The translations under genes and the position numbers were made by a program. Source: a virus. From it: 59,849 bases of DNA. The DNA lies in the IMG/VR virus record IMGVR_UViG_3300017717_000005, positions 1 through 59,849 of that record; one strand, 5' to 3'. The notes below the pieces were generated by a model. That model was given only the letters and a program-made list of their open reading frames with translations, did no database searches and had not been told where the DNA came from. Of this stretch, positions 1 to 50,088 are shown piece by piece; the first letter of the stretch is position 1, and every line of letters starts with the position of its first letter.

Positions 1-123
1 CCGAAGATCGGTTCGTAATACACTTTACCCTTTTCGTCTCGGCAAGCCTTGAGACACCTTCCACGATTAACACCATCCCGCACATAAGACACGTGCACCC
101 AATCAGGATTATCCGAATCACCA
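1..123. repeat. terminal direct repeat, copy A (identical to 59727..59849)
   Basis: Compared base by base by eye: the first 123 nt equal the last 123 nt. This fits either a circular-assembly overlap or a short direct terminal repeat. Confidence 0.9.
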
Positions 124-467
124 AACTCCCAAATGAGCTGATCAAACGTAAGGTTGTTGAGTATATACTGGAAGATCTCACCGTTTGTACAGCGTCCGAA
201 TACGTCTGCGTCAAGATCGAGTGCTCTACCCTGAATGTGCTGACTACGAACTGAACCACCGATGGCAACATTGAGCTCTTCGGAGCGATAGCCGCTCGAC
301 ACGTAGATAGGGCATCCGAAAGCTTTGCGAACAGGCTGGAACACCTCTTCTGCAATGGCTTTAAGATTTTCGATAGTCCAGTCATCAGGTTCATTATTTA
401 TGCCACGACGCTTAGCCGTGGTGCTCTTAGTCACCTCGGTCAGCGTCAGGTTCTTTGATAAGTTCAT
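1..467 (-). CDS. endolysin, peptidase M15 (zinc D-Ala-D-Ala carboxypeptidase/VanY-like) family; 5' portion of a gene that wraps the contig junction and ends at 59714
   Basis: My own minus-strand translation from the ATG at 467 gives MNLSKNLTLTEVTKSTTAKRRGINNEP...VSSGYRSEELNVAIGGSVRSQHIQGRALDLDAD...NPDWVHVSYV...EPIFGKGL (159 aa across the junction). The SxHxxGxAxD and WVH zinc-ligand pattern is typical of M15 peptidases. The start shares an ATGA overlap with the upstream stop. It is missing from the ORF track because it runs off the window. Confidence 0.8.
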   Translation of the reverse strand, partial: MNLSKNLTLTEVTKSTTAKRRGINNEPDDWTIENLKAIAEEVFQPVRKAFGCPIYVSSGYRSEELNVAIGGSVRSQHIQGRALDLDADVFGRCTNGEIFQYILNNLTFDQLIWEFGDSDNPDWVHVSYVRDGVNRGRCLKACRDEKGKVYYEPIF

Positions 468-2360: not shown

Positions 2361-2400
2361 GCCTCGGCAATGTTGCCAATCAAACTTCAATTCACTCATC

Positions 2401-2952: not shown

Positions 2953-2955
2953 GGG

Positions 2956-3009: not shown

Positions 3010-3038
3010 TACCAATCGAAACTTCAAACTTCAACATC

Positions 3039-3290: not shown

Positions 3291-3309
3291 TGAGCCTTCA
3301 GTAGGCGAA

Positions 3310-3866: not shown

Positions 3867-4262
3867 ATGAAGAAGAACATCAACGTCCCTTTCATCGCCT
3901 TCCTTGCATGGATGGCCGCTCTCCTGACCTTGGTCAGCATCATGAACACCGCCAATGCACAGGACACGTCACCTGACCCTGCCCCTCTCATGCTCACATG
4001 GGGAGCGCAAGAGGTCTCTGTCAGCCTCGTCAAGCAGATTGTGATTGCTCATGTGGGTAACACGGCTGTTGATGCGCCGTGTGACGCCACATGGGCTGAT
4101 TTTGAGAAGTCAGAGCGTGCCGTGGAGTTTGCCTACGGGGTGCTCCGCGAGTTCACCGACCTGACCAACGTAGAAATCGAGATTGCTCTCGGCTCGGCAG
4201 GCTACGAGAGAGCTATGTACTGGGCCAAGTGGTCCGACCCAATGGGCCACATGGAGTGGTGA
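3867..4262 (+). CDS. early secreted or membrane protein (131 aa) with an N-terminal signal peptide
   Basis: N-terminus is MKKNINVPFIAFLAWMAALLTLVSIMNTANAQD: a hydrophobic core followed by an ANA-Q cleavage-like site. Confidence 0.65.
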   Translation: MKKNINVPFIAFLAWMAALLTLVSIMNTANAQDTSPDPAPLMLTWGAQEVSVSLVKQIVIAHVGNTAVDAPCDATWADFEKSERAVEFAYGVLREFTDLTNVEIEIALGSAGYERAMYWAKWSDPMGHMEW

Positions 4263-13916: not shown

Positions 13917-14900
13917 ATGACTACCTCAATCTTTGAGAAGAGGCTGAGCTACAAGCCCTTTGACTATTCTGAAATTACTGACCCACTCATCAATGCGATG
14001 TGGGCAAGCCACTGGACTCACAACGAATTTAACTTCAAAGCTGATGTCCAAGATTACCACACCTCTCTCTCCGATCAAGAGAGAGCAGTAATCAAGCGAG
14101 CCATACTTCTCATTTCCCAAGTTGAAGTGGCAGTAAAATCATACTGGTCAAACATTGGAAAGCATCTGCCTAAGCCAGAGATTGCGGACATGGGGGCTGT
14201 ATTTGGTGGCGTTGAAGTGATCCACTCCCGCGCTTACTCTGAGATCTTGAGTAAGCTTGGACTGGAAGGAGAGTTCACTACCCTCCTAGAGAATGAGCCT
14301 GTACTGAACCGCGTTACTTACCTGAACAAATACGTTGATCGCGTATTTGAAGACGACAAGAAGCAGTTCCTCTACAGTCTCATCCTCTTCACGCTATTCA
14401 CCGAGAACGTCTCTCTGTTCAGCCAGTTCTACACTGTGCTTGGATTCAACCGCTTCAAGGCTGTGCTAAAGGACACCGCAAACGTGGTGCAGTACACCTC
14501 GAAGGAAGAGAACCTGCACGCTGAGGGTGGGATGGCACTGATCAACCAGATCCGTGCTGAGCATCCCGAGCTGTTTGACGCTGAGCTGGAGACACGCATC
14601 TGGGAAGAAGCCCAGGTTGCGCTGGACGCAGAGAGCAACTTAATTAAGTGGATCCTGCAAGGCTTTGAGAATGAGTTCCTTAGCGAGCCTATCTTAAACA
14701 ATTACCTCAAGAACAGAGTGAACGAGAGCATGCGCCGCATCGGGTTTGCATTCGAGTTTCCTGTCAACGAGGAGAGGTTGGAAGTCACCGCGTGGATGGA
14801 CGAGGAGGTATATGCCTCAGCCCTATCTGACTTCTTCCACAAGAAGCCTATCGACTACGCAAAAAGCACAAAGAGTTTCACAGCAGACGATTTATTTTAA
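13917..14900 (+). CDS. nrdB: ribonucleotide reductase class I small subunit (beta)
   Basis: Typical R2 features: a ferritin-like fold with iron ligands (VEVIHSRAYS, EENLHAEGG), a C-terminal tail, and a position immediately upstream of the large subunit. Confidence 0.85.
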   Translation: MTTSIFEKRLSYKPFDYSEITDPLINAMWASHWTHNEFNFKADVQDYHTSLSDQERAVIKRAILLISQVEVAVKSYWSNIGKHLPKPEIADMGAVFGGVEVIHSRAYSEILSKLGLEGEFTTLLENEPVLNRVTYLNKYVDRVFEDDKKQFLYSLILFTLFTENVSLFSQFYTVLGFNRFKAVLKDTANVVQYTSKEENLHAEGGMALINQIRAEHPELFDAELETRIWEEAQVALDAESNLIKWILQGFENEFLSEPILNNYLKNRVNESMRRIGFAFEFPVNEERLEVTAWMDEEVYASALSDFFHKKPIDYAKSTKSFTADDLF

Positions 14901-16546
14901 TGAAAGATTTTTACTGGGTCACAGAAGAGACCCGTCAATTTATGGAAAAGGGCTACCTAGACCCTGGACAAACCGTCGAAGAGAGGGCGCGAGAGATCGC
15001 AGACCACGCAGGTATGATCCTCGGGGACAAGCAGTTTGCAGACAAGTTCTACGAGAACCTGGCTCTTGGATGGTACAGCCTGAGCACTCCAGTGTGGGTG
15101 AACTTCGGCAAGAACAAAGGCTTACCTATCTCATGCTTCGGAACCACAGTGCAGGACGACACGTTCGACATCCTTCGTGGAGCCGCAGAGGTGGGAGCTA
15201 TGAGCAAGGTGGGTGGAGGTACGGCCACGTACTTCGGGAACCTGCGTCCTCGTGGCGCCAAGATCAGCAGCGGTGGTGAGACTAACGGGGCCGTCTCTAT
15301 GATGGAGCTGTACAACACCACAACCAACGTCATCTCGCAGGGAAAGGTGCGACGTGGTAGCTGGGCTGCGTACTTGGACGTCGAGCACCCAGACATCGAG
15401 GAGTTCCTCCGAATTCGTAGCGAGGGCCACCCGATCCAGGATGTGTCGTTTGCCGTGTGTATCGGCAACGACTGGATGCAGTCAATGATCGACGGCGACC
15501 AGGATAAGCGTGCTATCATGGCCAAGATCCACAAGAAGCGTAGCGAGACAGGCTACCCATACATCTTCTTCACGGACAACGTGAACGATCAGGCGCCTCA
15601 GTGGTACAAGGACAAGGGCATGAAGATCAAGCACTCCCAGTTGTGCGCTGAGATCATGGAGTACACCGACGAGGACAAGTCGTTTGTGTGCTGCCTGTCG
15701 TCCATGAATGCGTTGCACTACGAGGAGTGGCAGAACACTGATGGCGTTCAGCTTCTGGCTTCGTTCTTGGATGCGGTCTACTCTGAGTTCATCGAGAAGG
15801 CCAAGGACATTCCATTCATGGAGAAGGCTGTTCGCTTTGCTCGTGAGCATAGATCCATCGGCGTCGGCGTGCTTGGCTACCACTCATACTTGCAGAGTCA
15901 AGGCATCCCATTCGAAAGCATGCAGGCTCGGTTCATGAACAAGGCTATCTTCGGAGAGATCCAGCGGCAGTGTGAGGTGGCGAGCATGTATCTGGCAGGA
16001 GAGAAGGGAAGCCCAGCCGTTTTGGAGGGATATAACCGACGATTCAGCACGACCATGGCAGTGGCACCAACCACTTCGTCATCGTTCATCCTGGGGCAGG
16101 TGTCGCCGTCTATCGAGCCGTTGCAGTCTAACTACTTCACCAAGGACTTGGCTAAGGGTAAGTTCACCTACAAGAACCCCTACCTCAAGGATCTCTTGGC
16201 TGAGAAGGGTAAAGATGACGCAGCCACCTGGAAGGACATTATGATGAAGGGGGGATCAGTACAGCATCTGGAATTCCTGTCAAAGGAGGAGAGGGATGTG
16301 TTCAAGACGTTTGCTGAGATCTCACAGATGGAGGTGATCCAGCAGGCAGCTGACCGTCAGAAGTTTATTGATCAGGGACAGTCGCTGAATGTAATGATCA
16401 GCGACGAAGTCCCCTTAAAGGACGTCAACCAGCTTGTCATCAAGGCTTGGGAGTTGGGAATCAAGACGATGTACTACCAGCGCGGGGTCAACCAAGCACA
16501 GGCAGTGGGTAGGGACATCCTGAACTGCGCTGTGTGTGAAGGTTAA
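14900..16546 (+). CDS. nrdA: ribonucleotide reductase class I large subunit (alpha), short form with no obvious ATP-cone
   Basis: CFGTTVQDD...SKVGGGTATYFGNLRPRGAKIS...RRGSWAAYLDVEHPDIEEFL are hallmark RNR alpha motifs. The C-terminus carries a CAVC redox pair. Confidence 0.85.
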   Translation: MKDFYWVTEETRQFMEKGYLDPGQTVEERAREIADHAGMILGDKQFADKFYENLALGWYSLSTPVWVNFGKNKGLPISCFGTTVQDDTFDILRGAAEVGAMSKVGGGTATYFGNLRPRGAKISSGGETNGAVSMMELYNTTTNVISQGKVRRGSWAAYLDVEHPDIEEFLRIRSEGHPIQDVSFAVCIGNDWMQSMIDGDQDKRAIMAKIHKKRSETGYPYIFFTDNVNDQAPQWYKDKGMKIKHSQLCAEIMEYTDEDKSFVCCLSSMNALHYEEWQNTDGVQLLASFLDAVYSEFIEKAKDIPFMEKAVRFAREHRSIGVGVLGYHSYLQSQGIPFESMQARFMNKAIFGEIQRQCEVASMYLAGEKGSPAVLEGYNRRFSTTMAVAPTTSSSFILGQVSPSIEPLQSNYFTKDLAKGKFTYKNPYLKDLLAEKGKDDAATWKDIMMKGGSVQHLEFLSKEERDVFKTFAEISQMEVIQQAADRQKFIDQGQSLNVMISDEVPLKDVNQLVIKAWELGIKTMYYQRGVNQAQAVGRDILNCAVCEG

Positions 16547-16908
16547 AAGTCGCTCATCAAGATCTCGTCGATGGCTTCTTGGACATCGTCCTCGGTAGCC
16601 TCAAGAGTCATCATGATGTTGGCTTGAAATCTCTTGACTTCTTCACCTTCGTTGAAGACAACGACTGTAGGTACCACAACAATCTTGTGGTCGGACTGCA
16701 TGGCAGGGTTTGACGCAATGTCAACCCTTGCCGTGTTGCAGTCGCTAAGCTTTTCGATCCAGGGCACACTGTTTCCTGAGTTAAACGAGGCGTTAAACTC
16801 AATCACGCAGATACCCGAGCTGCAAACTTCTTCAGATTCCGCAACGCCCACAGAAGTGGCCGCCAACCAGAACGCAGAGAGCGCAAACAGGGTTAGTGTT
16901 GCTTTCAT
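16543..16908 (-). CDS. secreted thioredoxin-fold protein lacking the CxxC active site
   Basis: Signal peptide MKATLTLFALSAFWLAATSVGVA. VIEFNASFNSGNSVPW...VVVPTVVVFNEGEEVKRFQAN follows the thioredoxin beta-alpha-beta layout, but FNSGN sits where WCxxC would be. Confidence 0.5.
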   Translation of the reverse strand: MKATLTLFALSAFWLAATSVGVAESEEVCSSGICVIEFNASFNSGNSVPWIEKLSDCNTARVDIASNPAMQSDHKIVVVPTVVVFNEGEEVKRFQANIMMTLEATEDDVQEAIDEILMSDF

Positions 16909-17197: not shown

Positions 17198-18232
17198 TCA
17201 AATGATTACATAGTTGATTCCAACAGAGAAGTCGTGCCAAGATCTATCCCAGTACTTGTGAAATTTGCCTTCTGCAAACACACCAAAACTCTTGTTGAAT
17301 CTTTTTCCAAAGATAAGGCCTCCAGAGTAATCGATCCACTGACCGCTGTTCACGAACCTGTGATACGAATACTCACCATCTGTGTCTAGGTGATACGGAA
17401 TTACATTGCCCCAGGTGTGAACCCAGAAGTCTTTTGTGAAGTGATAGTAGTCAAACCCAACTACCAGTGAATGAACCCATTGGTTCGGAAGCTGTCCTCT
17501 TTTATCTGCTACATAGTCCTCAAGAAAGTCAGGGACAACGATCTCCTCCCACACCTCGTAACTATTTGCCACGAGCGTACCGTCTGGAGAAAAAAACTCT
17601 CCTGTGTTGACGTCGATGTCATAACCCTCCTGGATAGCAAGTGAAGTGAAGTGAAGCTGGTTGTTCTCAAGGAGCCACTCATTAAGAGGATCGTACCCGT
17701 ATGGCTCTGACAGCCTCTGCATGATTCCAGCGTTAAGCGACAGCTTACCAAGCTTAGCCCTGATTCTTTGGGAAGCCTCAAAGTATCTGACATCTGCAAA
17801 TCCATCCTGCAAGAACTCAACCTTGGTGATCCATTTGTCAGCCACGTATCTCAGGAAGTAGTCCTGGTCCAGGTAGTTAACGCCCTGCTGCCTTCTGTAG
17901 TCCCCCTCGAATAGAAACTCGAAGCCGCTCACCTTTCCGATGGTGGCGGCGTCTCCGTAGGACTTCTCTGTTCCGTTGTAAAACGTATTGGCTCTATTCT
18001 CGTACCCAAAGCGAGCGATCTTACGAACCCCTGCAGTAAGGGAATAGTCGAACGGAGTCTCAACAACATCTGTCTCCAGTCCGTTTGAAACAGAGAACAC
18101 CTCTCGATCCGACAGAGAGTTACCTCCGCTAAATGCTGTGTAGAAGGTTGCGAATTTGAACGCTTTCTTCAGTGCTTGACCTGAGACACTGAAGCTCAGC
18201 ATCATCAGGATTATGGCTGTAATATATCTCAT
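17198..18232 (-). CDS. signal-peptide protein, predicted outer-membrane beta-barrel-like (344 aa)
   Basis: Signal peptide MRYITAIILMMLSFSVSGQ. The rest is rich in Tyr/Gly/Phe with alternating hydrophobicity and no TM helices. Overlaps the upstream gene (18229-18232). Confidence 0.5.
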   Translation of the reverse strand: MRYITAIILMMLSFSVSGQALKKAFKFATFYTAFSGGNSLSDREVFSVSNGLETDVVETPFDYSLTAGVRKIARFGYENRANTFYNGTEKSYGDAATIGKVSGFEFLFEGDYRRQQGVNYLDQDYFLRYVADKWITKVEFLQDGFADVRYFEASQRIRAKLGKLSLNAGIMQRLSEPYGYDPLNEWLLENNQLHFTSLAIQEGYDIDVNTGEFFSPDGTLVANSYEVWEEIVVPDFLEDYVADKRGQLPNQWVHSLVVGFDYYHFTKDFWVHTWGNVIPYHLDTDGEYSYHRFVNSGQWIDYSGGLIFGKRFNKSFGVFAEGKFHKYWDRSWHDFSVGINYVII

Positions 18233-20370
18233 TGCTTGACGATTCTTTCTACGACAATCCTTCCCTTGTAATTTACGACAACCTCGTAGACGCCTTTAGG
18301 GAGCGATCTAAGATCGATCTGCCCCGATGTAGTGCCAGATACTACGATTTGACCAGAGGCGCTATAAACGTCTGCAAATGCTCCGACAGGCGCCTGGAAG
18401 TTAATGACATCTCTAGTTGGGTTGGGCCATAACTGAACGCGGATATAACCCATGTCCATCACGTTGGTCACGCCCTGACTACAGTATTCGTACATCTCAA
18501 TGCACACCGCATCCCACCCCACCTCGCAACAGTAAGGGTCAACCTCGATCACCCATGAGTAACAGTAATCATTGGCCCAGTATGGTTCCCCTGGGCCAGT
18601 GATGCAACCAGCATCATAAAGGCACTCTTCGTTAGCGGGAACGTTGGCGTACACGTTGTAATTAGCTGCGTCTAGGTCCATACACCCAGGCATCGGAGAG
18701 ATGCAGCTACCGTTTTCTGTATTGGCCATCGGGTCGTAGTTGATGGCGGTAGGGATGGTGCAGCCGTACACGAACTCAATGCAGCTGTTGTTCTCTGTAT
18801 TCGCCTCTTCGTTGTAGTTGAACATGGTTGGGTCGGTGCAGCCGAACACAACCTCTTCGCAATCTGCTTCATCGGTAGCTGCCTCGTTGTAGTTGAAGGC
18901 TGTCGGATCTTGACATCCCGCGACTTCCAGCTCGTCACAAATACCGTCGTCGTCCGAGTCGTTCAAGCACTCGTTGTCGCACCCGTAGTACTCGATCGGG
19001 AAGGTACAGTCACCATCTACGTTTGCCTCTGGGTTGTAGTCACAGGCGAAGCTGAGCGTACATCCCACGACACCCTCCACGCAGAAGTCTCCACACACGG
19101 GGATACCATCGTATTTGAATGGGAACTTCTTGATGGCGTCGGACCAAGGGTTGGTTCCGCCCTCCATGAACACCCCGCTAGGTCCGTCGAAGTAGAACCC
19201 GCACTGAGAGGCTGTGGTCTCTGCATTACCCTGCGTAAAGAACATGACCCTGACTGCTTCTCCAGAGTACAGAGGGATCTGAATCTCTTTCTCAAACTCA
19301 TCGGCAGGATACATGGTAAATGGTCCCCAGATCTCGTCTCCCTGCTGAACCCCAATCCAGCTACCGAACCAGCCATCACCTGCCCCGTCTGTAAGTGTCA
19401 GAGTAAAGTCACAGCTGGCCTCTGTCTCTAGCGTGTTGGCATCCTCATTGAAGTTAATTGCCTGAGGATCAGTGCATCCCAGAATCACTTCTGTCTGACA
19501 GCTGCCGTCGTCGATAACAGCACCAGGGTCATATTCTGTAAACCATGAGTCGGTGCAGCCCTGAGGGATAGGAGGAAAGCATGGGTCAATCACGATAGTA
19601 TCACTTGATACTACTTCGTACTGAGTGGTATCACCAACGTAGTACAGTGTCTCTCCACAAAGGCTAGATACAAGCAAGTTGCCGTCAACACCCCCGTAGC
19701 AGCTACCACACATACCATCACCGAAGCTGTCGTACACGTCCACCCTAAACTCCGAACCAACAGGTAGGCACACAGCCTCCACAATGGGAGCTCCTACAAT
19801 AGAATAGCCTGACCCCTCAGCAACCACTTCACCGTCTGGGATTGTGATTAGATCCCAGCTGATCTCAGCTGCATAAGTGTCAGGCGTAACTGTGACAAGG
19901 ATGTTGTTGTATCCTTCTTCGCATTGCACAGGCGGGAAGTCGCAGGGTGCAGGGGCGTTAGCCCATGGGTGATAGTTGATTGCACCCGCCTGCATACAAC
20001 CGAAGATTGGTGGCGGACAGGCAAGCACTTCGAAGGGAATGGTTTGCTCTGAGGTATTGAAGTCATACACCGTGGTGTCTAACTCACAGGTGTTGATCGA
20101 GAACCACCCCTCACCAAATCCACAGCAGATGCCATCGCCAAAAGAGTCGTAGATGGTAAAGGTGTACTCACCAAGAGGCAGTGGAAGAAACGCCTCGACA
20201 TACGGGAACTCACCCTGAAGAGGAGCAGACCCCGCAACTATCGCGTTGCTTGAGTCTCGAACTAGCCATGTGGTTTCTTGCCCATAGCCATCTCCTTGGA
20301 TAGAAATGGAGACCCAGCCTGTCTGCGCTGTTGCAAACAGAGGCAAAAACATAAGCAATAAACCTCTCAT
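18229..20370 (-). CDS. secreted Cys-rich modular protein with a T9SS C-terminal sorting domain
   Basis: Signal peptide MRGLLLMFLPLFATAQ. Contains three modules with DSFGDG / DGAGDGW motifs and eight GC(T/M/Q)D..A.NY(N/D)..AN....C repeats. The C-terminal 72 aa, YIRVQLWPNPTRDVINFQ...LPKGVYEVVVNYKGRIVVERIVKQ (18232..18447), fit the T9SS type A CTD pattern. Confidence 0.75.
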   Translation of the reverse strand: MRGLLLMFLPLFATAQTGWVSISIQGDGYGQETTWLVRDSSNAIVAGSAPLQGEFPYVEAFLPLPLGEYTFTIYDSFGDGICCGFGEGWFSINTCELDTTVYDFNTSEQTIPFEVLACPPPIFGCMQAGAINYHPWANAPAPCDFPPVQCEEGYNNILVTVTPDTYAAEISWDLITIPDGEVVAEGSGYSIVGAPIVEAVCLPVGSEFRVDVYDSFGDGMCGSCYGGVDGNLLVSSLCGETLYYVGDTTQYEVVSSDTIVIDPCFPPIPQGCTDSWFTEYDPGAVIDDGSCQTEVILGCTDPQAINFNEDANTLETEASCDFTLTLTDGAGDGWFGSWIGVQQGDEIWGPFTMYPADEFEKEIQIPLYSGEAVRVMFFTQGNAETTASQCGFYFDGPSGVFMEGGTNPWSDAIKKFPFKYDGIPVCGDFCVEGVVGCTLSFACDYNPEANVDGDCTFPIEYYGCDNECLNDSDDDGICDELEVAGCQDPTAFNYNEAATDEADCEEVVFGCTDPTMFNYNEEANTENNSCIEFVYGCTIPTAINYDPMANTENGSCISPMPGCMDLDAANYNVYANVPANEECLYDAGCITGPGEPYWANDYCYSWVIEVDPYCCEVGWDAVCIEMYEYCSQGVTNVMDMGYIRVQLWPNPTRDVINFQAPVGAFADVYSASGQIVVSGTTSGQIDLRSLPKGVYEVVVNYKGRIVVERIVKQ

Positions 20371-20801
20371 TTCTTGGCTTTCTCGATGGTTCTTCCTGCG
20401 AAGTATGCACCAAACGCAGTCAACATCAAAATCTGTAACAAATCCACATAAGAGTCCTTTACATTAAAGGCTACATTATCCATGCTGTCTATAAACATAG
20501 TCACCATAAACATGCTCATCAGGGCGATAAGAGTGACAGGTCTGATCAGCTTTGCAAGCTTCACATCGCTACCCATATCTGCCTTCCATCTCTCGGTGAC
20601 GTTGTTTTGAAACTGGATCTCTGCGTCGACGGCAGCCACCCCTTCGTCTGTGTTGACGTCGGGGTCTTTGTCGATAAGATTCTTTACGATTCCAAGTCCA
20701 CCGCTATCGGGCAACAAGTCCCCAACAACATCAAGCACATTAGGTGCTTTTGACTTGAGCCACTTACCGAGGCCCGTGTCTTTAATCTTCTGATCTTTCA
20801 T
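20367..20801 (-). CDS. holin-like membrane protein (soluble N-terminal region plus two C-terminal TM helices)
   Basis: TM helices are IRPVTLIALMSMFMVTMFI and LLQILMLTAFGAYFAG, with a charged C-terminus (RTIEKAKK). Function is inferred from topology only. Confidence 0.4.
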   Translation of the reverse strand: MKDQKIKDTGLGKWLKSKAPNVLDVVGDLLPDSGGLGIVKNLIDKDPDVNTDEGVAAVDAEIQFQNNVTERWKADMGSDVKLAKLIRPVTLIALMSMFMVTMFIDSMDNVAFNVKDSYVDLLQILMLTAFGAYFAGRTIEKAKK

Positions 20802-23800
20802 TTTCGTATTGTTCTTGCATGATTTGGAAGAGCATCAGGGTGTGATTGCGGAATCTGTTGCCCTGGTACTCGATTGCTCCGTTGTAGTGGTCGTTAACCT
20901 TGTTCATAGCCATGACGCGCTCTTCGTCGCCCATCTTGGCGTATTCCTCTGTTGCAATCAAAGCTTCGAGCTCTTGATAGCGCTCCTTACCTGAAGCCTC
21001 CATGAGCTTGTTGAGCTGCGTGGTGTTCAAGTAGAACGCCTGATCTTGGAACTCTTCGTCCTGCATCCATGGGTAATTGATGCCTGCTTTCTGGAGCTTG
21101 CTCTTGTATCTGGAAGTAATGTTCGGTACATTGATCTTTCTCTTTGCGGCATAACCAGGAGTTCCGCAGGCCTTAGTCAAGTCTTCTGTTTGCTCGTAAA
21201 GCCTGTAGATCTCGTTAGACACAGCATCCGCCTCACCTTGTCTAGACTTGGTGATGTCGAAGATCTGATACGCAATACCAGTGGTGCCTCTGGGCGTTTG
21301 CTTGATAGGATTACCTTTCCAGTCCACACGAACTGGCAGCTCTGACAAACCAAACGTTCTGTCCTTGATGGTGTATGCCATCTGAGTCAGCATTCTTTCT
21401 GTCGTAGACATATCTTTGGTGACTCTCGTGTCTGGCAAGAACTCTCTGTTGCCCCTGTACACAGCAGAAAGCGTGTTTGGAAGCACAGTTGCAGACACAG
21501 CCTGGAACGTAGTTCTGGTCCACTTCTCAAAGCTCTTCTCCAGGTCTTTCACATCGGCAGATCCCACTACATCCAGGAGGGTAGACATTCCCTGCATGAA
21601 GCTTTGATCCATCATATATGTAATTCCTGAGAACGCACCCACACCAAACACATCCTGAAGGGCGTGCAAAGCGAACTCTTCGTCGTCTCTCTGCCTGAGT
21701 TCCTCTTTGTTCACAGACTTAGCTGTTGCGCCAATCACAGCTCCCAAGATACCGAGCTTATTGTACCCCACGAACACGTCGTCAGGCTGGTGAGATGAAT
21801 CTTCACCTCTCACCCAACGCTGAACACCTGTTACGTTGATGCTACTTGGCGGGAACTGGTCGTAAGAAATGTTTCTCTTCTCGTCATCGCTCCAGTCGAG
21901 GGCTTCTGAGATCAAGCCCTCTCTGATCAGAGCGACTGCAGTCTGAGAAACCATAGTCCCAACAACGATCTTACCAAAGTCTTGTGATGCTCCACGAGCA
22001 TCTCCCTCGGATAGTTTCTTTACGATTGATGGTCCAGCTACGTATGGAGACACGTAAGTCAATGTCTCAATAAGCATGTTTGCTGGAGTTCTAACATAAG
22101 GCATATTAGACCTAATCACGAACTTAGCAAACGCATTTGAATCAAGACCTGGAACCCAAGACATGCCCTTAGAAATGACTCTTTCGAAGAACTTCACTGA
22201 GTCTTCCGCCACATCTGACATGGCTGTTCTCTCTTGGAACGTAAGCTTTCTTCCTTCTCTCTCAGCTGCTTCTCTTGCCTTCTTTGTAGGGTGCTTGATG
22301 AAGTTAGTCAAAGCGTCGCCTTCCAATCCCATGTTCTTACCAGCCTGATACAGCTCGATACCCTCAACATATCTTCTGAATGGAGTATCACCCAGGGTCA
22401 AGAATCTGAACATGGTTTCAGCTGGGATTCCAAATGTCCCTTGAACAGCGAGCTTGACTCTTTGTCTGTTTGAAACTGCTCCATCTGGCCCGAGTGGCAG
22501 GTCTCCCTTACCCATGGCTGACATCAATGATCGGAACGGAGCAAAACCTCTATGCACTCTCCACTCCGTCCCGTCAGCCTCTTGACCTGTAGCGATAGTG
22601 TCCAATGCCTCGACAAAGCCTTGCCCGAACTTACGCAATCCGTACATGTATGCGTTGATTGCATAGTTTCTCTTCATCGGGGACTCAATCCCAAATGCAT
22701 TGATCAGTCTCTCCACTGGCAAGGCGACGGCATCTACAGCCACCTTGCCTAGTGCGTTTACCATGTTGGCTCCTACGTTTGTGATCTGAGACATAGGGGT
22801 AAGCAAGTTACCCTGGATAAGCATGGTCCCAATCTCACCCCATCCTCTTTCGATCACGCCGTTAGAGAATGTGTCCAGCTCTCTTTCAGCAAGCTTCACT
22901 CTTCTAGTGGCTGCTTCGAGCTCAATCTCCACATCCTGACCAGCGATCGCCTGCTTCATGAGCTCTTCGTGCTCAGCTTGTCTTTGGAAAAGATCAGCTG
23001 CAATCCTCTCAAGCCTTTGTTTCTGTGCAGGAGAGAGGCTGTTACCTCGCTTTTGTACCGCGCTCTCAATGACACCGACAATGCCAGCTGGTGTACCAGA
23101 CTTGAGTTCTCTGAGGTGCCTCAATAGGCGACCAGCTGTGGTTCCTGCAGCGGCAGCCTGCTCGACCAAAAACGGAACAGCATCCATGTCTCCTCTACCC
23201 ACGGCTCTATTGATGAGCTCGGATGTAGCAAGAACTCCGAGATCATCATTCCTGCTCTGTAAATTCCCAAGACCCTGCCCACTCATCATTGCGATGAGGT
23301 CAGCGTCACTCTTGTCACTGAGTTCTCCCTTGAGTTCTTTTAGGCTCTGTGGTGTGAAGTAGTTCTTAGGGTTGCTAAGGATCTCGCCTCGCACTCCTGG
23401 GTACTTCCGAGCCATTCGGCCAGCAGTCTTACGAGTCTTCAGCAGACTAGACGCCCTGCTCTGCGCTTCCTCCATGTTGGCTGCAACCTCGCTTTCGTTA
23501 AGTGCGACCTTGGATTCAACAGGCATGTTGTCGTAAGCCAACTCAACGTCCAATGCGTCTGCAAACTGAACTCCATTTTTCTCGGCCATTGCCTGGAATC
23601 TCTTGACTGCCTTAGTGTACTTAGGTCCACGCTTAACTCTCTTTGCTCTTTCAGATGCAGTCTCAGATCTACCTTGCTTCAGGGTAGGATCGTTGAAACC
23701 GTAGTATTCAATATCACCTCTCAGGTAAACTGTGTTACCCACGATGGTCGCTTCTTCGGCAGACTTGATGGGTCTGCCTGCAGCGTCCACAAATACGTTG

Positions 23801-26800
23801 TGCTTGAATGGGTTGAAGAATGCCTTCACCCCGTCGAAGTTCATGAGATCAATGTTGTCGGTCATGAACTCACCATCCACGCTGGCCATAGGGAACTTGT
23901 TCTCTTGGAACGTAACGATCTTCTTGCGTGCGTTCTGATTGACATTCAGGTTTGGATTCTTGACCATGACAGCACCAGCGTACTTCAAGGCCTCGCCTGT
24001 AGCGGTCTTGTCGTGCATAGTCTGAACTGGGACTCCTGTGTTCTTCATGACGTTGAGGTTGAGTCTAACCCCAACCTTTCTGCCAGACTCCACCTGAACT
24101 CCCTTAGCAATAATCCTTCTTGACGTAGCATCTGTGTTTAAGGCTCCTTGCACAACTCTGTTGCTGATCGACTCTCCATTCCTCAGGACGGCAAGAGCCT
24201 CCTTTGGACCTCTCGTTCTGTACAGATTAGATTGCGTCGCGTCCTTCTTGCCTGCCTCTGTAGGGAACAGCAGCAGCTGAGATGCTCTTGCATCAGACTT
24301 GCTCTTCATTGGAGGCAAGTTCCTAAGAGCCCCAGCGTATGTTTTGTAGTCGAGAGATTCTTTGAGATTACCGTCTGCATCGAATATGGCGTTGTCTTTG
24401 TGACCGACGAAGATTTGTCTGTCAGCAAAAACCAACTGTCCAACTGTTGATGGAGTGACTCTTTGGTCTGGGAATGTGTCAGCCAAAACACTAGCCATCT
24501 GAGTAACAAACTCCCCCGACTTTCTCTTCTTGGAGTTGCTTTCTGGTAGGCTTGGATTTTCGATTTGCTCCAAGATGCGATTAAGAGCAGAAATATCTGA
24601 CTCTGACTTGCCCTCTACCTCCAAGAAGTCAATGTGTTGTTTAGCAGCCCTATAGATGTCTGCCATTATGCCGACCGATCTGCTTACATCAGCCCTATTT
24701 TTAGCATCTCTGCCCTGCATGCCGCCAAAGAGAGAAGAGTATTGAATATCATAGGAGCTATTGTCCACATCTTTACCCAACTGCTCCAAGTCAACGCTGC
24801 TCATATCAACTCCCATAGACTCAAGCTTCCTTGTGAGCCTTAGCCAGTTTCTAAGAACAAGACCTTCTGCCCCTTCATACGTCCCCAGTACAAGCTGTGT
24901 TGTGTTGTACACATGAGTGTCTACGGTGACGATGTCTGAGAGCTTACCTGACTTTTTGTTCGAAAGGTTTGGCATAAGCTCTTGGTTCATATTGAGCAAC
25001 CAAGCACCGACCTTGTTACCAAACAAAGCTTGAGACATAGTTCTTTCAATCACATTCGCCCCCGAGTATGGCGACAACAAGAACCCCGTGAGTCTCTTCC
25101 AATCAACCTCTCCGTCAGGCCTCACAAAAGGACCGTTCTCAGAAATCTCTTTTGCGTAGATCTTCTTAAATGTTGGGGTGATACCCTTGAGATCAAGATC
25201 TCCGTTGATGATTGAGTTGAGCTTTCTAATCGCCTTGGCATACGATCTAACACCAACCCCAGATGCTCCTTTGATCTTCTTAGCACCAACCTTCTTGGCG
25301 AGGTTCTCTGTAATGCCACTAGCTCCGTCAAACTTGAGCGCTTCTGACTCAACCATGAGCTGCAGAACAGCCTCCATGTTTGGCTTAGACTGGTTCTTGG
25401 CTGACACGAGGGCCGCAAAGAAGTTCATCTTAGCCAAGTTGTTGAACCTGCTGCCAGTAAGTGCGCCCTCATCAAGGGCTTGATCCACCTTGGCCTCAGC
25501 CTCGGCTTGATAGTTTACAAAGTATTCTAGCGGATTTTCATCGCCAAACTTTGCTGCTCTAAGTTCTGGACTAGCCATGTACTGACCCATAAGCCCCTGG
25601 AACACCTCTTGCATTGCTGCTGGGTTATCCTCAAACTTAACCATAAGGAACTGCCTCATGGCATCATAAGCGGCTGCACGTGAGTTTACCGATTTACCTT
25701 TAGGTATTTCAACACCCATGTTACGCAAAGCCTTCTCAAGCATCTTTACGTGTTGAGGGCTAAAGGCATCTCTTTCGAGGTTGATCATGAACTCAAACAG
25801 AGAGTCAGAAGCTCTGGTCTCCGAGTCGCCTTTGAAGTTAAACTCCTTACCCTTAGCCTTAGCCTCTCTTTCAATGATTCCCTCTACGTGAGTATACAGA
25901 CCGTCAAGTCGTTCTTGGAACTGCGGTGCTTTGCCAAACGCTTGTGGGTTTGTCTCGCCCCTGCTTTCGGCCTGACTGATCATTCTCAAGATCGGAGCTG
26001 TCTTTCTTCTCACAGCAGCGGCCACGGACTTAGAAATAAGCCCTTGCGCCTCTGCTGAAGACACCATTCTATTGAGGTCTTTACTCTTCTGCTTGATCGG
26101 GTTTGAATCGAGTCTGTTGCTCTTTCTAGCGCCATACCCTTTGATTCGGTCAACATCAACGACCTTACCCTCAGAGTCAGTGAAGCCAGTAAGCTCTTGC
26201 TTCTTGCCCATGTCGGTAGTCTTTTTCCACCAGTTGATGAAGTGCCACTGATCTCTAAACGACTTGGTTTGTTTGGCAGACCCAATATCTTTTCTTTCTC
26301 CAAACCCGAAGTACTTGTAGATAGGCTTGTTGTAGGTGACGGTCACGGTGCCATCTTCATTCTTAGCAAGTCTCGCAGGTGACACTCTCTCAGAAGCTCT
26401 TGTCTCACCTGCAAAAGCCTGAGAGTCAACGGTCAAGTCCGAACCAAACACGATACCCTTCTCTTGAGCCATTGCAAACTTGGCAATGATAGCCCTCATG
26501 GAGTCCGAGTTGGTGATAGCCAGATCCTTCCCTGCTGCTCCATGGATTGCAATCATCATTTTGTTGATGGCAATTCTCACTCTCTCGATAATACCAAGAT
26601 CTACATCCCCAGCGGCCAAGGCTGACAGCAACTCGATTGTAGTTTCTTCGAAGACCTCAGCCTTAGGCTTGCTCCCGTAAGCTCTTTCCTTTTCTTCCAT
26701 CCTCTCAATGAGGTCTGGATTTCTTCTAGCCACGATGGCGGCAATGTTGTCTCTGAAGCTCTGAGCAACATCAGGATTCTTAGAGTACATATTGTACAGT

Positions 26801-29800
26801 GTCTTCCCGATCACTGCGTGCATAACCTCCTCCTGCACTGTTTCTGCGAAACTCTTTGTTCTCTTTAAGCCTCCTTCTCCTCGGTCAAACTCAAGTCTTT
26901 GGTTTTCTCTAATCTGAGACGGATTGATGTGGATTGCTCCTCCAGAGTACAGCCCACCCCATGTCGTTCCGTGCTCACCCCCGTCCAGGTTGCCAGCTGT
27001 TTCGGCGTCTGGATATACCACAAGATCCAGACCTAAGAAATCAGCAAAGGCTTGGAATCTGTTAAGGATCTTAGCTTCTTTTGCTGTGAGACCACCCATG
27101 CCCTCAAGCCAAGTCCCTTTATCGTTTTTTCTGTTTGCTTGAACAGATCTGTCTGGGTATTTCGACTTAGGCGCAGCCTCTGATTCCTTTGACTCAGATC
27201 TTGTCTCCTCTACCAGCTGATCAATCTCACTTAGGTCGTCAGTGGCTGAAGTTTCTTTCTCTTCAGCCTTAGACTCTGTCAGTGCTCTAATATCTGCTAC
27301 TCTGTCGATCTCTGGCTTCAGCCCCTCTACAACCTTACCGTCGCCGCCAGTGGCAATCTCCTCCATTGTATCAAGAGCAAATACAGAAACCTGGTTGTAT
27401 TGCTCGCCGAGTGAGACTGCTGCCTTCTTATCGACCACGGCTGACACGTCGATGAATGTCTGATCTGACTGGGCATCGTAGTACGTTCCGATTGATAGGA
27501 CGTCTTCGTTGCCTTCAAAAATATCTTTGTTGGCTTCTTTGAACTCGTTAAGAATCTGAACCATCTCTTGCTGGCTCATCTTGCCTTTCACGATCTTGCT
27601 TCTTTCATTGAAGATGCTTACCGAAGCCTTCGGTTGGCCCACTTGGTTTTGACCATCAAGCGTGTATGTGCTGCCCAGTACGCCTCCAGTAGCCTCATCT
27701 GCGAAGTGGTTCTCCGATTGAGATTCAGCACTCCACGATGTTGCTGGCTCTTCAAGTACAGCAGCTTCTGACTCTATGCCGAGCACAGAGGACAAACCGT
27801 TTGCAGCCTCCAAGACACCAGCCTCTGATTGGTCTGACGGCGTTGAGTCGTACTCAGATCTAGCGCCGTTGTAATTAGACAGAGCCTCCACAAGGGACTG
27901 ACTCTCCTGCTCAACAGCCTGGATCTCTGATTCAATGTCAGCTACGTCGCTCTCACTTCTAGTGCCTTCAGCAACCTCCTCTACAGCGCTTTGAAGTCTC
28001 TCATTGAGTGACAATCTTTCTTGCTCAAGAGAAGCTATCTGATCCTGAACCTGCTCTTTGACTTCCGTGGTAGCCTCTACATTATTCAGAGACACCTCGT
28101 TAGGGTTGAAGCTGTCCTCTAGGGTCTTTCTCTGGGTGGCCTTTCTTTCTAGCTCTGCCTCAAGCTCTGCCCTTGACTCTGCTGTCAGGTTTTTGCTCTT
28201 TAGCTCAAGCTGGATGTTGTGAATGTCTGTGTCGATCGATTGCAAAGCACGTGCCTTTCTTGGCTCAGCTTGTGCCATCTTCTTGTACCTACCCAAGAGA
28301 CCGCTTCTTCTAGATTTAGCCTCGTTTCTTTGACTTTTAGCAAGAGCTGACAACCTCTCTTTCTCACCACGGTCCACAGACCTCCTTGCTTTACCCTCGT
28401 TTGCTGCGGCCTTGTTTTCCAGGTCCGCAGCTACGGATCCCTCGGTAGAGTTGCTTGAAGATGCAAGGCGCCTCGCCGCTTGAGATGAGTTCTGATTCTC
28501 AATATCGATTTCAGAGACTCCTCTTGGATGTAACTTCTTAGCGTGGTCAATGCCCTTGCGAGTGATAGATGCAGCAGATTCGGTGTCTCCGTTTTTCACC
28601 GCCCTGGTCAGGTTTGATAAAGAATAATCTGTCGCAGACTGAAGGGCCATGTCATCAAGCTCAAGGCCAGCCTTAGATGCCTCCTCCCTGATCTTCTGCT
28701 GAGCCTGGTCTACTGATGGGCGTTGAGCCTTCTTCTGACTGGCAACACTACCCTCAAATTCCCCGTCATTCTTTACGTCAAGTCTGTTCAGGTCGTGACC
28801 CGCGTCCATAAATGCCCTGGCTTCTTGGTAACTCACTTTCTGGCCGTCAATTCTGTACTCAGGAACAAACATCATATTTATCCCAGTAGTGATACCAGAA
28901 ACAGGAACCTCCATAAACCCCTCAAGAACAGACTCAAATGCGTCAACCTCTCCTGTAGACACCAACTGAGCTGCAGTCTCTCCAACCATAGCCATCGGAG
29001 TCTCCACTGCCATACCGACAGCAGCTCTTCCTGTCTTTGATGAAAGTGCTTTTGACGTGCTCTTCGCTGCAAAACCCATGGCCTTACCAGACCCAACCGC
29101 AGCCAAGGAGTCAAAGACCGCAATGGTGACTCCTCTTGCGATTGCCTGAGTCTTCATTCGGCTTACAATCTCTTCATCATTGAAGATCTTTTCTAGATTC
29201 TCCCCTGTCATGGACAGGTTATTGTGATCTATTTCTTCCCTTAGGATTTCCATGATGGTTGAGTGGGCGTCAACCATGCCTGAAACACCGCCCATAAGAC
29301 CCTTGAAGAATCCAGGAACCGCGCCAGCGATTGCACCAACAGCAGTACCAGGGCCAGGTGCAACAGCAGTACCAGCGGTACCTCCAATGGTGGCGTATGC
29401 ACCCGCTGTCACCACACCAGAAACTCCTGCTCCAGCCAAACCGCTAAGCTCAGTTCCGCTACCAATCATTCTTCCGAACGAATTAAACAGCGTTTCCATG
29501 CCTCCAGACTTGTTGTTGGCGAAAACAGCAACCTTATCCCAGAAGCCGCCACCCGCTTTGTCCACCTCTTCCATCTGCTTGCCGAACTCGGTCGCCGCCT
29601 CTGACCTCCCTATGCTGTCGATTTCTACGATAGATTTAGCCAGTTCATCGAACTCTGCATCGCCATCCAGAGCCCCGATGAGCTCATCACCAAGAGACCC
29701 TTCTTCTCTACCCTGCTTAAATACTCTAGCTTGGTTGACCATCCAGTCAGTGAGATCTTCGGCTCCTTGAGCGATTTTACCGTCTCCGTAGTCTATTTTG

Positions 29801-50083: not shown

Positions 50084-50088
50084 CACCG

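What the first reader, a model, noticed from the sequence alone, without database searches (positions are those of the whole stretch)
18229..20370. A phage late gene encodes a Sec- and T9SS-sorted, cysteine-rich modular surface protein
Seen directly in the sequence:
- A cleavable-looking signal peptide, MRGLLLMFLPLFATAQ.
- Three roughly 90-aa modules ending in YDSFGDGICCGFGEGW, YDSFGDGMCGSC and TDGAGDGWFGSW.
- Eight short Cys-bracketed repeats of the form GC(T/M/Q)D..A.NY(N/D)..AN....C.
- A calcium-binding-like NDSDDDGICDELE segment.
- A C-terminal 72 aa, YIRVQLWPNPTRDVINFQAPVG...IDLRSLPKGVYEVVVNYKGRIVVERIVKQ, that fits the type A C-terminal sorting domain of the Bacteroidota type IX secretion system.
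From established knowledge, CTD proteins cross the inner membrane via Sec and are then delivered to the cell surface by T9SS. That route is incompatible with cytoplasmic virion assembly. My inference is that this is not a structural protein but a factor displayed on or released from the infected cell, for example for superinfection exclusion, receptor masking, adhesion, or polysaccharide binding. It is embedded in the structural operon and coupled to its neighbours by ATGA overlaps. I am not aware of a described phage T9SS cargo system.
Basis: partly seen in the sequence, partly recalled or inferred. Interest (0 to 1): 0.85.

Follow-up and report, generated by a model that had tools for sequence, protein, structure and literature searches.

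The report
Phage T9SS cargo in envelope cassette
A marine Bacteroidota phage encodes a cysteine-rich, non-enzymatic protein carrying both export signals of the host's type IX secretion pathway, and it is the fast-evolving member of a four-gene cell-envelope cassette found in hundreds of uncultured marine phages.

Summary
ORF 18229-20370(-) encodes a 713-aa protein with these features:
- a signal peptide that exposes Gln16
- three beta-sandwich modules
- exactly eight Cys-bracketed repeats
- a DxDxDG loop
- a C-terminal domain above the curated cut-offs of TIGR04183 (38.1 vs 23 bits) and PF18962 (28.9 vs 27 bits); its model superposes on a substrate CTD solved inside the T9SS translocon (8glk_D, TM 0.78)

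The interpretation as exported T9SS cargo rather than a virion part is supported in silico, but two corrections apply.
- Phage-encoded type A CTD cargo has already been reported (Bellas 2020, PMC7468147).
- The gene is not inside the structural genes. It follows a holin at the far end of the late block.

What appears to be undescribed is the context. The cargo always travels with three other envelope genes: a roughly 12-stranded outer-membrane barrel, a 94-aa membrane-anchored coiled-coil protein and a periplasmic thioredoxin-fold protein without CxxC.
- All four genes are present in 80 of 85 loci, and the other five are cut by sequence ends.
- The barrel gene is in at least 568 IMG/VR contigs from several phage lineages.
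- It has no match in 50,697 GenBank phages, and only three hits in GTDB, all on probably mis-binned contigs.

The function is unknown. My working model is late surface display of a binding protein.

The parts
18229..20370 (-). 713-aa Sec- and T9SS-sorted, Cys-rich modular cargo protein (whole ORF)
20326..20370 (-). signal peptide, aa 1-15 (MRGLLLMFLPLFATA), predicted to be cleaved before the invariant Gln16 (Bacteroidetes Q-rule)
   Evidence: sequence reading; Q16 invariant; 69/70 orthologues keep the hydrophobic core; Q-rule described in PMC5837995
20017..20322 (-). beta-sandwich module 1 (aa 17-118) with the YDSFGDGICC motif
   Evidence: AF2 pLDDT about 80; homologous to module 2; the same domain type follows protease domains in other CTD cargo
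19579..19923 (-). beta-sandwich module 2 (aa 150-264) with the YDSFGDGMCGSC motif
19081..19413 (-). module 3 (aa 320-430). It is the most conserved part of the protein, has the TDGAGDGWFGSW motif at its start, and matched along its length only in members of this protein family
   Evidence: density of invariant columns; AF2; no significant PDB sequence match; distribution of matches
18622..19062 (-). stalk made of Cys-bracketed repeats 4-8 (aa 437-583). Repeats 1-3 lie between the modules, at aa 125-143 and 272-320
   Evidence: regular-expression scan; the same repeat occurs up to 65 times in a 6618-aa Flavobacteriales MAG protein
18925..18969 (-). DxDxDG calcium-loop-like segment (aa 468-482, CLNDSDDDGICDELE)
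   Evidence: invariant D471, D473, D475, C478, D479, E480; only a weak TSP3_bac hit in one orthologue
18481..18621 (-). Cys-rich C-terminal knot (aa 584-630, ...YCCEVGWDAVCIEMYEYC), conserved but poorly modelled
   Evidence: invariant Cys and Trp columns; pLDDT 33-42
18232..18438 (-). T9SS type A C-terminal sorting domain (aa 645-713)
   Evidence: TIGR04183 38.1 bits, PF18962 28.9 bits; 29/29 orthologues hit PF18962; PDB profile hits to substrate CTDs; Foldseek 8glk_D TM 0.78
17198..18232 (-). 344-aa partner: a signal-peptide protein (invariant Gln19) predicted to be an outer-membrane beta-barrel of about 12 strands with a helical insert. The family is found almost only on phage contigs
16912..17196 (-). 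94-aa partner: bitopic membrane protein with an N-terminal transmembrane helix and a conserved C-terminal helix of about 55 aa, read as a coiled coil
   Evidence: sequence reading; conservation; co-occurrence; only a weak PHROG match of unknown function
16543..16908 (-). 121-aa partner: signal-peptide protein with weak thioredoxin-fold similarity, in which the CxxC site is replaced by FNxxN
20367..20801 (-). 144-aa holin-like gene immediately upstream, joined by an ATGA overlap
   Evidence: phrog_3427 'holin' E 6.5e-22; within 1.5 kb of the cassette in 21 of 55 loci that have both flanks
3..467 (-). Peptidase_M15_3 endolysin. This separate lysis enzyme shows that the 713-aa protein is not needed as the endolysin

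Best explanation
The 713-aa protein is a phage-encoded cargo of the host's type IX secretion system (T9SS).

Proposed route:
1. Sec carries it across the inner membrane. Signal peptidase I cuts before Gln16, which follows the Bacteroidetes Q-rule.
2. Its 39 cysteines form disulfides in the periplasm.
3. The folded protein is handed to the T9SS through its type A C-terminal domain, and ends up on or outside the outer membrane of the infected cell.

It has no catalytic domain. It is built from parts that other T9SS cargo also uses: beta-sandwich accessory modules that elsewhere follow secreted proteases, a stalk of disulfide-stapled 20-25-aa repeats, and a calcium-loop-like segment. It also has one family-specific conserved module (module 3). 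I read it as a binding protein or adhesin.

It is the variable member of a four-gene envelope cassette that occurs almost only in phages. The other three genes, which are much more conserved, encode an outer-membrane beta-barrel, an inner-membrane-anchored coiled-coil protein, and a periplasmic thioredoxin-fold protein that cannot be redox-active.

My inferred model is as follows. Late in infection the three conserved proteins form the fixed envelope platform, with the barrel acting as anchor or shuttle. The cargo is the exchangeable surface-exposed binding head. The result is a remodelled cell surface, most plausibly to block adsorption of further phage or of progeny to the dying cell and its debris, or to change adhesion.

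Shown: both sorting signals, the domain anatomy, the cassette, and its distribution. Inferred: actual secretion, physical association of the four proteins, expression timing, and purpose.
For: Sorting signals. TIGR04183 and PF18962 score above their curated cut-offs, and 29/29 orthologues hit PF18962. The family profile matches solved substrate CTDs, and the modelled fold matches the CTD bound in the translocon (8glk_D). The signal peptide with an invariant Gln at +1 is present in both the cargo and the barrel (Q-rule in PMC5837995).

Host phylum. The closest terminase relatives are in phages of Flavobacterium and Cellulophaga.

No enzyme. Nothing is found in Pfam, NCBIfam, PHROGs or PDB beyond the CTD.

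Shared building blocks. The module 1/2 domain type lies behind S8, trypsin, M4 and M10 protease domains; the M4 and M10 proteins and two others scanned also carry a CTD. The Cys repeat occurs up to 65 times in a Flavobacteriales MAG protein.

Cassette. All four genes are present in 80 of 85 loci, and the remaining five are cut by ends of the stored sequence. The gene order is circularly permuted in five loci. Median identity to the window proteins is 42% for the cargo (complete cargo genes about 675-1189 aa), 67% for the barrel, 77% for the 94-aa protein and 64% for the thioredoxin-like protein.

Phage restriction. The barrel gene is in at least 568 IMG/VR contigs. Only three hits appear among 185,579 GTDB species, all in taxonomically implausible MAGs.

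Backbones and positions. The cassette occurs in window-type podophage-like genomes, in a lineage with a distant terminase, on a crAss-like contig and on a 300-kb contig. It sits after the portal gene in 17 loci and after the holin in 20.

Barrel fold. Foldseek gives 133 PDB hits at E<=0.001, and the top 50 are all outer-membrane barrels.

Separate endolysin. A Peptidase_M15_3 gene lies elsewhere in the window.
Against: - Nothing here shows secretion, surface location, CTD cleavage or any interaction among the four proteins.
- The host is unknown, so the presence of a T9SS is inferred from the phylum.
- SignalP was not available.
- The barrel model is only moderate (pLDDT 63, TM 0.3-0.39).
- The barrel is not a detectable member of PorV, PorP/SprF or PorQ, so its role as anchor or shuttle is an analogy only.
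- Strong conservation of the three partners is unusual for surface-exposed proteins, and would equally fit a machine that acts on conserved host envelope parts.
- Frequent adjacency to holin or endolysin genes fits a lysis role at least as well as surface masking.
- Late expression is inferred only from gene position.
Confidence: 0.6

Rival explanations
1. The four genes form an outer-membrane disruption or lysis-accessory device, a functional substitute for spanins in phages of Bacteroidota. The 94-aa inner-membrane coiled-coil protein, the periplasmic thioredoxin-fold protein and the outer-membrane barrel would bridge the envelope. The T9SS cargo would be a surface-side component or a trigger.
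For: - The cassette directly follows a holin in the window.
- It lies within 1.5 kb of a holin homologue in 21 of 55 loci, in several different arrangements: upstream in the window, downstream in L010-L012, L006 and L037.
- An M15 endolysin directly follows it in L071 and lies next to it in L059.
- The 94-aa protein has the topology of an i-spanin, by sequence reading.
- I recognised no lipoprotein or spanin pair among the ORFs examined. No systematic spanin search was run.
- Together the four products cover the inner membrane, periplasm, outer membrane and surface.
Against: - No lipobox-bearing o-spanin-like gene is present in the cassette.
- In 17 loci the cassette sits directly after the portal gene, and in 27 of 55 loci no holin144 homologue was found anywhere in the stored stretch.
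- From general knowledge, spanins are small and evolve fast, whereas these partners are 64-77% identical across unrelated phages.
- A variable surface protein of roughly 700-1200 aa exported out of the periplasm has no obvious role in membrane fusion.
Confidence: 0.2
2. The cargo and the barrel are a phage-borne cargo-shuttle pair, analogous to type B CTD proteins and their cognate PorP/SprF shuttles. The barrel would receive the cargo at the T9SS translocon and fix its final position on the surface.
For: - The barrel gene directly follows the cargo gene, usually with overlap, in 77 of the 85 loci counted; five loci have a permuted order that still keeps all four genes.
- Cognate shuttle genes are linked to their cargo genes in F. 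johnsoniae (PMC12618676; PMC9143113).
- The barrel is a predicted outer-membrane protein.
Against: - The CTD is type A, and published work says type A CTDs are recognised by PorV (abstract of PMC12618676).
- No type B CTD family matched the cargo at E<=1.
- None of 32 barrel orthologues hits PorP/SprF, PorV or PorQ models even at E<=10, and there is no PDB sequence match.
Confidence: 0.12
3. The protein is a virion component, such as a fibre or decoration protein. Its C-terminal beta-sandwich would only resemble a T9SS CTD, and its hydrophobic N-terminus would not be a working signal peptide.
For: - The gene lies in the same strand block as the structural genes.
- Modular beta-sandwich and repeat architectures are common in phage fibres.
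- Some BFVD matches are crAss-like structural or tail proteins, at low probability.
Against: - The CTD passes two curated thresholds and matches true substrate CTDs in both sequence and fold.
- The signal peptide and Gln+1 are conserved.
- 39 Cys point to an oxidising compartment.
- The three obligatory partners all have export or membrane signals.
- The position in the genome is not fixed.
- There is no PHROG structural family match.
Confidence: 0.05

Closest known systems
Phage-encoded T9SS type A CTD cargo in 'Cryophage' (Bellas et al. 2020, Nat Commun, PMC7468147)
   Same: A Bacteroidota-type phage carries genes with T9SS type A sorting domains. Those genes are among the variable genes of the phage population, and the authors propose hijacking of the host T9SS, with possible roles in competition or superinfection.
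   Different: The Cryophage cargos are enzymes or a PA14 protein (endoglucanase, GH39, PA14). The passages read do not mention a conserved partner cassette. Here the cargo is non-enzymatic, Cys-rich, and always linked to three envelope genes in many marine phages.
Cellular T9SS type A cargo proteins (for example F. johnsoniae NucA and FspA, P. gingivalis gingipains)
   Same: They share a Sec signal peptide with Gln at +1, a C-terminal domain of about 70 aa with a beta-sandwich fold, and modular accessory domains.
   Different: This one is encoded by a phage, lacks a catalytic domain, and contains a family-specific module 3. Whether the CTD is cleaved and the protein attached to lipopolysaccharide is unknown.
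Type B CTD cargo with linked PorP/SprF-like shuttle barrels (PMC12618676; PMC9143113)
   Same: A cargo gene is followed directly by a gene for an outer-membrane beta-barrel.
   Different: The CTD here is type A, not type B, and the barrel shows no detectable PorP/SprF homology.
Phage lambda morons lom and bor, and phage exclusion proteins such as T5 Llp and Cor (from general knowledge)
   Same: These are phage genes, some lying within late or tail regions, whose products go to the host envelope rather than the virion. Some of them block receptors or change adhesion.
   Different: They are single small proteins exported by Sec or Lol only. None uses T9SS and none forms a four-gene envelope-wide set. 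There is no sequence similarity.
Two-component spanins (lambda Rz/Rz1; from general knowledge)
   Same: An inner-membrane protein with a periplasmic coiled coil works with an outer-membrane partner, and the genes lie beside holin and endolysin genes.
   Different: The outer-membrane partner here is a 344-aa barrel, not a small lipoprotein. Two further genes are obligatory, and adjacency to lysis genes is not universal.

Membership tests
T9SS type A CTD cargo (TIGR04183 / PF18962) | C-terminal sorting domain scoring above the curated HMM cut-offs, located at the extreme C-terminus | tested here: met
   TIGR04183 scores 38.1 bits (cut-off 23) over aa 648-713. PF18962 scores 28.9 bits (cut-off 27) over aa 647-710. 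29/29 orthologues hit PF18962.
T9SS type A CTD cargo (TIGR04183 / PF18962) | Beta-sandwich CTD fold like that of solved substrate CTDs | tested here: met
   AF2 pLDDT is 82-89 over the CTD. Foldseek gives 8glk_D TM 0.78 and rmsd 2.3 A, 8glj_D TM 0.73, and also the mirolase CTD 8qb1. The sequence profile hits 8glk_D at E 2.7e-5.
T9SS type A CTD cargo (TIGR04183 / PF18962) | N-terminal Sec/SPI signal peptide | tested here: met
   Heuristic only, because SignalP was not available. The features are a positive n-region, a hydrophobic core, AxA|Q, an invariant Q16, and a conserved core in 69/70 orthologues.
T9SS type A CTD cargo (TIGR04183 / PF18962) | Host has a T9SS; export depends on SprA/PorV; the CTD is removed by PorU | not testable with these tools
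   The host is unknown. A Bacteroidota host is inferred from terminase relatives and the Q-rule.
Type B CTD cargo with PorP/SprF shuttle | Type B CTD on the cargo | tested here: not met
   Pfam and NCBIfam scans at E<=1 returned the type A CTD as the only sorting-domain family for the cargo.
Type B CTD cargo with PorP/SprF shuttle | Linked gene encodes a PorP/SprF-family barrel | tested here: not met
   None of 32 barrel orthologues matches PorP/SprF, PorV or PorQ models at E<=10 in Pfam or NCBIfam. There are no PDB sequence hits.
Type B CTD cargo with PorP/SprF shuttle | Cargo gene and outer-membrane barrel gene are adjacent | tested here: met
   Adjacent, in cargo-then-barrel order, in 80 of the 85 loci counted; the remaining five have the cargo after the other three genes or lack it at a sequence end.
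Outer-membrane beta-barrel protein (344-aa partner) | Signal peptide plus a closed antiparallel barrel of long strands | tested here: inconclusive
   AF2 pLDDT is 63 with about 12 long strands. The top 50 Foldseek hits are all outer-membrane barrels at probability 0.93 or above, but TM is only 0.2-0.39. Two of 32 members weakly hit the NF049866 outer-membrane barrel family. No curated family match exists.
Thioredoxin (121-aa partner) | Thioredoxin fold with a CxxC active site | tested here: not met
   PF00085 scores 20.6 bits (cut-off 23.5) and TIGR01068 scores 22.9 bits (cut-off 96.8), both below cut-off. The CxxC position reads FNxxN in the consensus of 75 orthologues.
Two-component spanin | i-spanin: N-terminal transmembrane helix plus a periplasmic coiled coil | tested here: inconclusive
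   The 94-aa protein has this topology by sequence reading. No spanin family match was found.
Two-component spanin | o-spanin: small outer-membrane lipoprotein with a lipobox | tested here: not met
   None of the cassette products has a lipobox. The N-termini were inspected.

The most novel reading that the evidence does not exclude
The four genes encode a previously undescribed phage-borne device that spans the whole cell envelope and is coupled to the host T9SS. Two versions are possible. In the first, it is a new way for Bacteroidota phages to breach or remodel the outer membrane at lysis. In the second, it is a self-contained 'cargo plus private shuttle or anchor' system that lets unrelated phages plant exchangeable binding heads on the infected cell surface.
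Probability: 0.25. Interest if true: 0.85.

Novelty: new variant of a known kind. Interest (0 to 1): 0.6.

Why it matters
T9SS cargo is normally treated as a cellular trait, and only one paper in the library searched reports it in a phage. Here the cargo is part of a conserved and abundant cassette. Each partner searched has about 1,700-3,300 protein clusters in public metagenomes. The cassette has no match in the GenBank phage records searched, and I found no description of it in the literature library. It would give T9SS and phage biologists three things:
- a defined four-gene unit that can be expressed in Flavobacterium johnsoniae
- a possible answer to how phages of Bacteroidota handle the outer membrane or protect their progeny
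- a marker for assigning uncultured marine phages to Bacteroidota hosts, through the Q-rule and the CTD

It also flags phage contigs mis-binned into MAGs of unrelated taxa.

Tried and rejected
1. The thioredoxin-like partner as a disulfide catalyst for the Cys-rich cargo. Rejected because CxxC is replaced by FNxxN in the consensus of 75 orthologues.
2. The barrel as a PorP/SprF, PorV or PorQ homologue. No hits even at E<=10 in 32 members, and none in PDB sequences.
3. The 713-aa protein as the endolysin of a holin-endolysin pair. It has no peptidoglycan-hydrolase domain, and a separate Peptidase_M15_3 gene lies at 3-467.
4. The 1030-1240-aa homologues on contigs of 190-300 kb as cellular (host) genes. 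The one examined (L001, from a 301.8-kb contig) has phage-like surroundings and the same four-gene cassette.
5. Looking for the cassette in isolated phages. tblastn against 50,697 GenBank phage records found nothing for the cargo or the barrel. The CTD alone gave two marginal hits, at E 0.01 and 0.07. PHROGs gave nothing for the cargo, the barrel or the thioredoxin-like protein.
6. Naming the fold of the modules. Foldseek on the whole model gave only weak matches to C2-domain arrays and collagen-binding domains. A profile of module 3 against PDB gave nothing significant; the best hit was E 0.42.
7. Promoter and terminator scans around the cassette. Counts were no higher than in shuffled sequence.
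8. Megablast of 20 kb of the window against phages. Only an 86-bp stretch in the ribonucleotide reductase small-subunit gene matched.

Full report
**1. What is in the sequence**

The ORF at 18229..20370 on the minus strand encodes 713 aa.
- Signal peptide. The N-terminus MRGLLLMFLPLFATA|QTGW has a basic n-region, a hydrophobic core and an AxA site.
- Cys repeats. A regular-expression scan finds exactly eight Cys-bracketed repeats, starting at aa 125, 272, 299, 437, 486, 511, 537 and 563. The protein has 39 cysteines.
- Modules. AlphaFold2 on a 29-sequence alignment (mean pLDDT 71) gives three beta-sandwich modules, at aa 17-115, 154-255 and 319-422, and a well-modelled C-terminal sandwich.
- Calcium-like loop. 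The aspartates and glutamate of NDSDDDGICDELE are invariant.
- Operon structure. The upstream and downstream genes overlap the ORF by ATGA.

One correction concerns the modules. Modules 1 and 2 are homologous (hhalign probability 97.9%, E 4.7e-13). Module 3 shares only the D..GDG motif, and there the motif sits at the start of the module rather than the end.

**2. The sorting signals are real**

The C-terminal domain:
- It scores 38.1 bits on TIGR04183 (cut-off 23) and 28.9 bits on PF18962 (cut-off 27).
- All 29 aligned orthologues hit PF18962.
- A profile of the family finds solved T9SS substrate CTDs in the PDB: NucA in the translocon complex (8glk_D, E 2.7e-5), FspA-CTD (8glj_D), and gingipain CTDs more weakly, at E 0.02-0.13.
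- The modelled domain superposes on 8glk_D with TM 0.78 and rmsd 2.3 A.

The signal peptide:
- Gln16, directly after the predicted cleavage site, is invariant, and so is Gln19 in the neighbouring 344-aa protein.
- Exposure of an N-terminal Gln by signal peptidase I is the 'Bacteroidetes Q-rule' (PMC5837995, PMC10653852).
- In 69 of 70 unique full-length orthologues of the cargo, and in 78 of 78 of the barrel, the hydrophobic N-terminal core is kept.
- SignalP was not available, so this part rests on a heuristic.

**3. The genome**

The window is a phage genome.
- It carries a terminase large subunit (50103-52223), a portal (47621-50086), tail and virion proteins, and a giant 3102-aa ORF.
- It carries a primase-helicase and ribonucleotide reductase genes on the plus strand.
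- It carries a Peptidase_M15_3 endolysin at 3-467.
- The terminase is 40-47% identical to those of Flavobacterium and Cellulophaga phages and of an uncultured virus. No GenBank phage is close at the DNA level.
- The gene upstream of the finding matches phrog_3427, annotated 'holin' (E 6.5e-22).

The finding therefore lies after the structural genes and the holin, not among the structural genes.

**4. The main new point: a four-gene envelope cassette**

Three genes follow the cargo gene.
- A 344-aa protein with a signal peptide. Its model (pLDDT 63) has about 12 long strands and a helical insert. Its Foldseek hits are exclusively outer-membrane barrels: autotransporter beta-domains, NanC, OmpG, FadL and FapF. 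There are 133 hits at E<=0.001, but TM is only 0.3-0.39.
- A 94-aa protein with one N-terminal transmembrane helix and a highly conserved C-terminal helix.
- A 121-aa signal-peptide protein with weak, sub-threshold thioredoxin similarity. The CxxC position reads FNxxN, so it cannot be a redox enzyme.

I collected 86 related loci: three from contigs that encode cargo homologues (two of them near-identical, so one was left out of the counts, leaving 85), three from GTDB genomes and 80 from IMG/VR.
- All four genes are present in 80 of the 85 loci counted, and the other five are cut by ends of the stored sequence.
- The order is cargo-barrel-94-Trx in 73 loci, plus two more that carry a tandem second cargo gene. 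In five loci it is circularly permuted, as barrel-94-Trx-cargo or 94-Trx-cargo-barrel.

Linkage that survives rearrangement argues that the four genes work together.

**5. Distribution**

- The barrel gene occurs in at least 568 IMG/VR viral contigs and in more than 3,000 protein clusters in metagenomes, many of them from Tara Oceans samples. The thioredoxin-like protein has about 1,700 clusters.
- In 185,579 GTDB species genomes the barrel gene has three hits, all in MAGs of Parvibaculum, Nitrosopelagicus and Rickettsiales. These are best explained as mis-binned phage contigs.
- It has no match in 50,697 GenBank phage records. The cargo, the barrel and the thioredoxin-like protein have no PHROG family, and the 94-aa protein has only a weak match of unknown function.
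- The cassette is carried by window-type podophage-like genomes, by a lineage with a distantly related terminase, by a crAss-like contig with CrAss_Ring domains, and by a 301.8-kb contig with phage-like gene content.
- Within the window-type lineage it sits either after the holin (20 loci) or directly after the portal gene (17 loci). In L071 and L059 it abuts an M15 endolysin.

It behaves as a mobile accessory module.

**6. The cargo is the variable member**

Median identity to the window proteins across 80 loci:

| Protein | Median identity | Range | Length |
|---|---|---|---|
| Cargo | 42% | 29-92% | complete genes about 675-1189 aa |
| Barrel | 67% | 53-90% | 344-377 aa |
| 94-aa protein | 77% | 48-96% | 91-132 aa |
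| Thioredoxin-like protein | 64% | 43-85% | 108-128 aa |

Longer cargo versions have more Cys repeats or extra modules. Two loci carry tandem cargo genes.

**7. Where the parts come from**

An exhaustive search with aa 17-430 found 5,939 relatives at E<=0.001.
- Module 1/2-type domains occur in large proteins behind subtilase, trypsin, thermolysin (M4) and matrixin domains. The M4 and matrixin proteins, and two others scanned, end in a T9SS CTD.
- The Cys-bracketed repeat occurs up to 65 times in a 6618-aa protein of a Flavobacteriales MAG.
- Module 3 is the most conserved part of the phage protein. It matched along its length only within this family and has no significant PDB sequence relative.
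- No catalytic domain was found by any library.

**8. How it most likely works**

Shown: two conserved export signals, a disulfide-rich non-enzymatic modular body, obligatory linkage to three envelope proteins, restriction to phages, and mobility.

Inferred: Sec export, oxidative folding, T9SS passage, and display on or release from the infected cell. In this model the conserved barrel, 94-aa protein and thioredoxin-fold protein form a fixed platform, and the cargo is an exchangeable binding head.

The purpose is open. I favour surface remodelling that blocks adsorption to the dying cell or its debris, or that changes adhesion. The main rival is an outer-membrane disruption role. That rival is supported by the frequent but not universal adjacency to holin and endolysin genes, by the i-spanin-like topology of the 94-aa protein, and by the fact that I recognised no spanin pair among the ORFs examined. 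No systematic spanin search was run.

A cargo-shuttle reading, like type B CTD proteins with PorP/SprF (PMC12618676, PMC9143113), fits the gene order but fails both family tests. A virion role is unlikely.

**9. Novelty**

Phage-encoded T9SS type A cargo was reported in 2020. [quoted passage not shown] UniProt already names an uncultured-virus homologue of this protein by its sorting domain.

I found no description of the four-gene cassette, its phage-specific barrel or its wide distribution in the literature library. I rate the finding a new variant of a known kind, of moderate to high interest.

Noticed in passing
window 3-467 (-): A Peptidase_M15_3 endolysin (E 6.6e-19) lies about 20 kb from the holin-like gene at 20367-20801. 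Its stop codon is cut by the window edge.
   Followed up: partly
window 3867-4262 (+): A 131-aa ORF in the plus-strand (early) block has a signal-peptide-like N-terminus ending ...TANA|Q, which is Q-rule-like. It may be another exported phage protein. It has no Pfam match.
   Followed up: no
window 52879-53478 (-): The C-terminal half of a 199-aa ORF matches Cpn10/GroES (25.4 bits, above the cut-off of 21.1). This could be a phage co-chaperonin-like gene next to the terminase.
   Followed up: no
window 20782-30090 (-): A giant 3102-aa ORF directly precedes the holin. Its only matches are phrog_32588, phrog_586 and Phage_L5_gp82 (aa 2001-2122). Homologues of 2255-2442 aa precede the cassette in related contigs.
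   Followed up: partly
window 55223-57508 and 57524-59710 (-): Two adjacent paralogous tail proteins of 761 and 728 aa both match phrog_5939.
   Followed up: no
L004, L005, L006 (GTDB MAG contigs NZQM01000097.1, CALBOT010000064.1, CBDHFF010000001.1): The cassette appears in MAGs labelled Parvibaculum, Candidatus Nitrosopelagicus and Rickettsiales. These are almost certainly phage contigs mis-binned into unrelated genomes.
   Followed up: partly
L038 6310-10004 and L054 6547-10004: Two tandem cargo-like genes (about 700 aa and about 460-520 aa) precede the barrel gene, showing that the variable member can duplicate.
   Followed up: no
L008 and L010 (both ends of IMGVR_UViG_3300030330_003594, 59,691 bp): The cassette is found at both ends of the same contig, which suggests terminal redundancy of a circular or permuted genome of about 60 kb, like the window.
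   Followed up: no
344-aa barrel orthologues (alignment A1): Eleven of 32 members give weak hits to bacterial SH3_5 (best E 0.0016). The location of the hits within the protein was not checked, and their meaning is unknown.
   Followed up: no
window 14350-14435: An 86-bp stretch in the ribonucleotide reductase small-subunit gene is 86% identical to Rhizobium phage RHph_I46 and its relatives. This was the only megablast hit of 20 kb of the window against GenBank phages.
   Followed up: no
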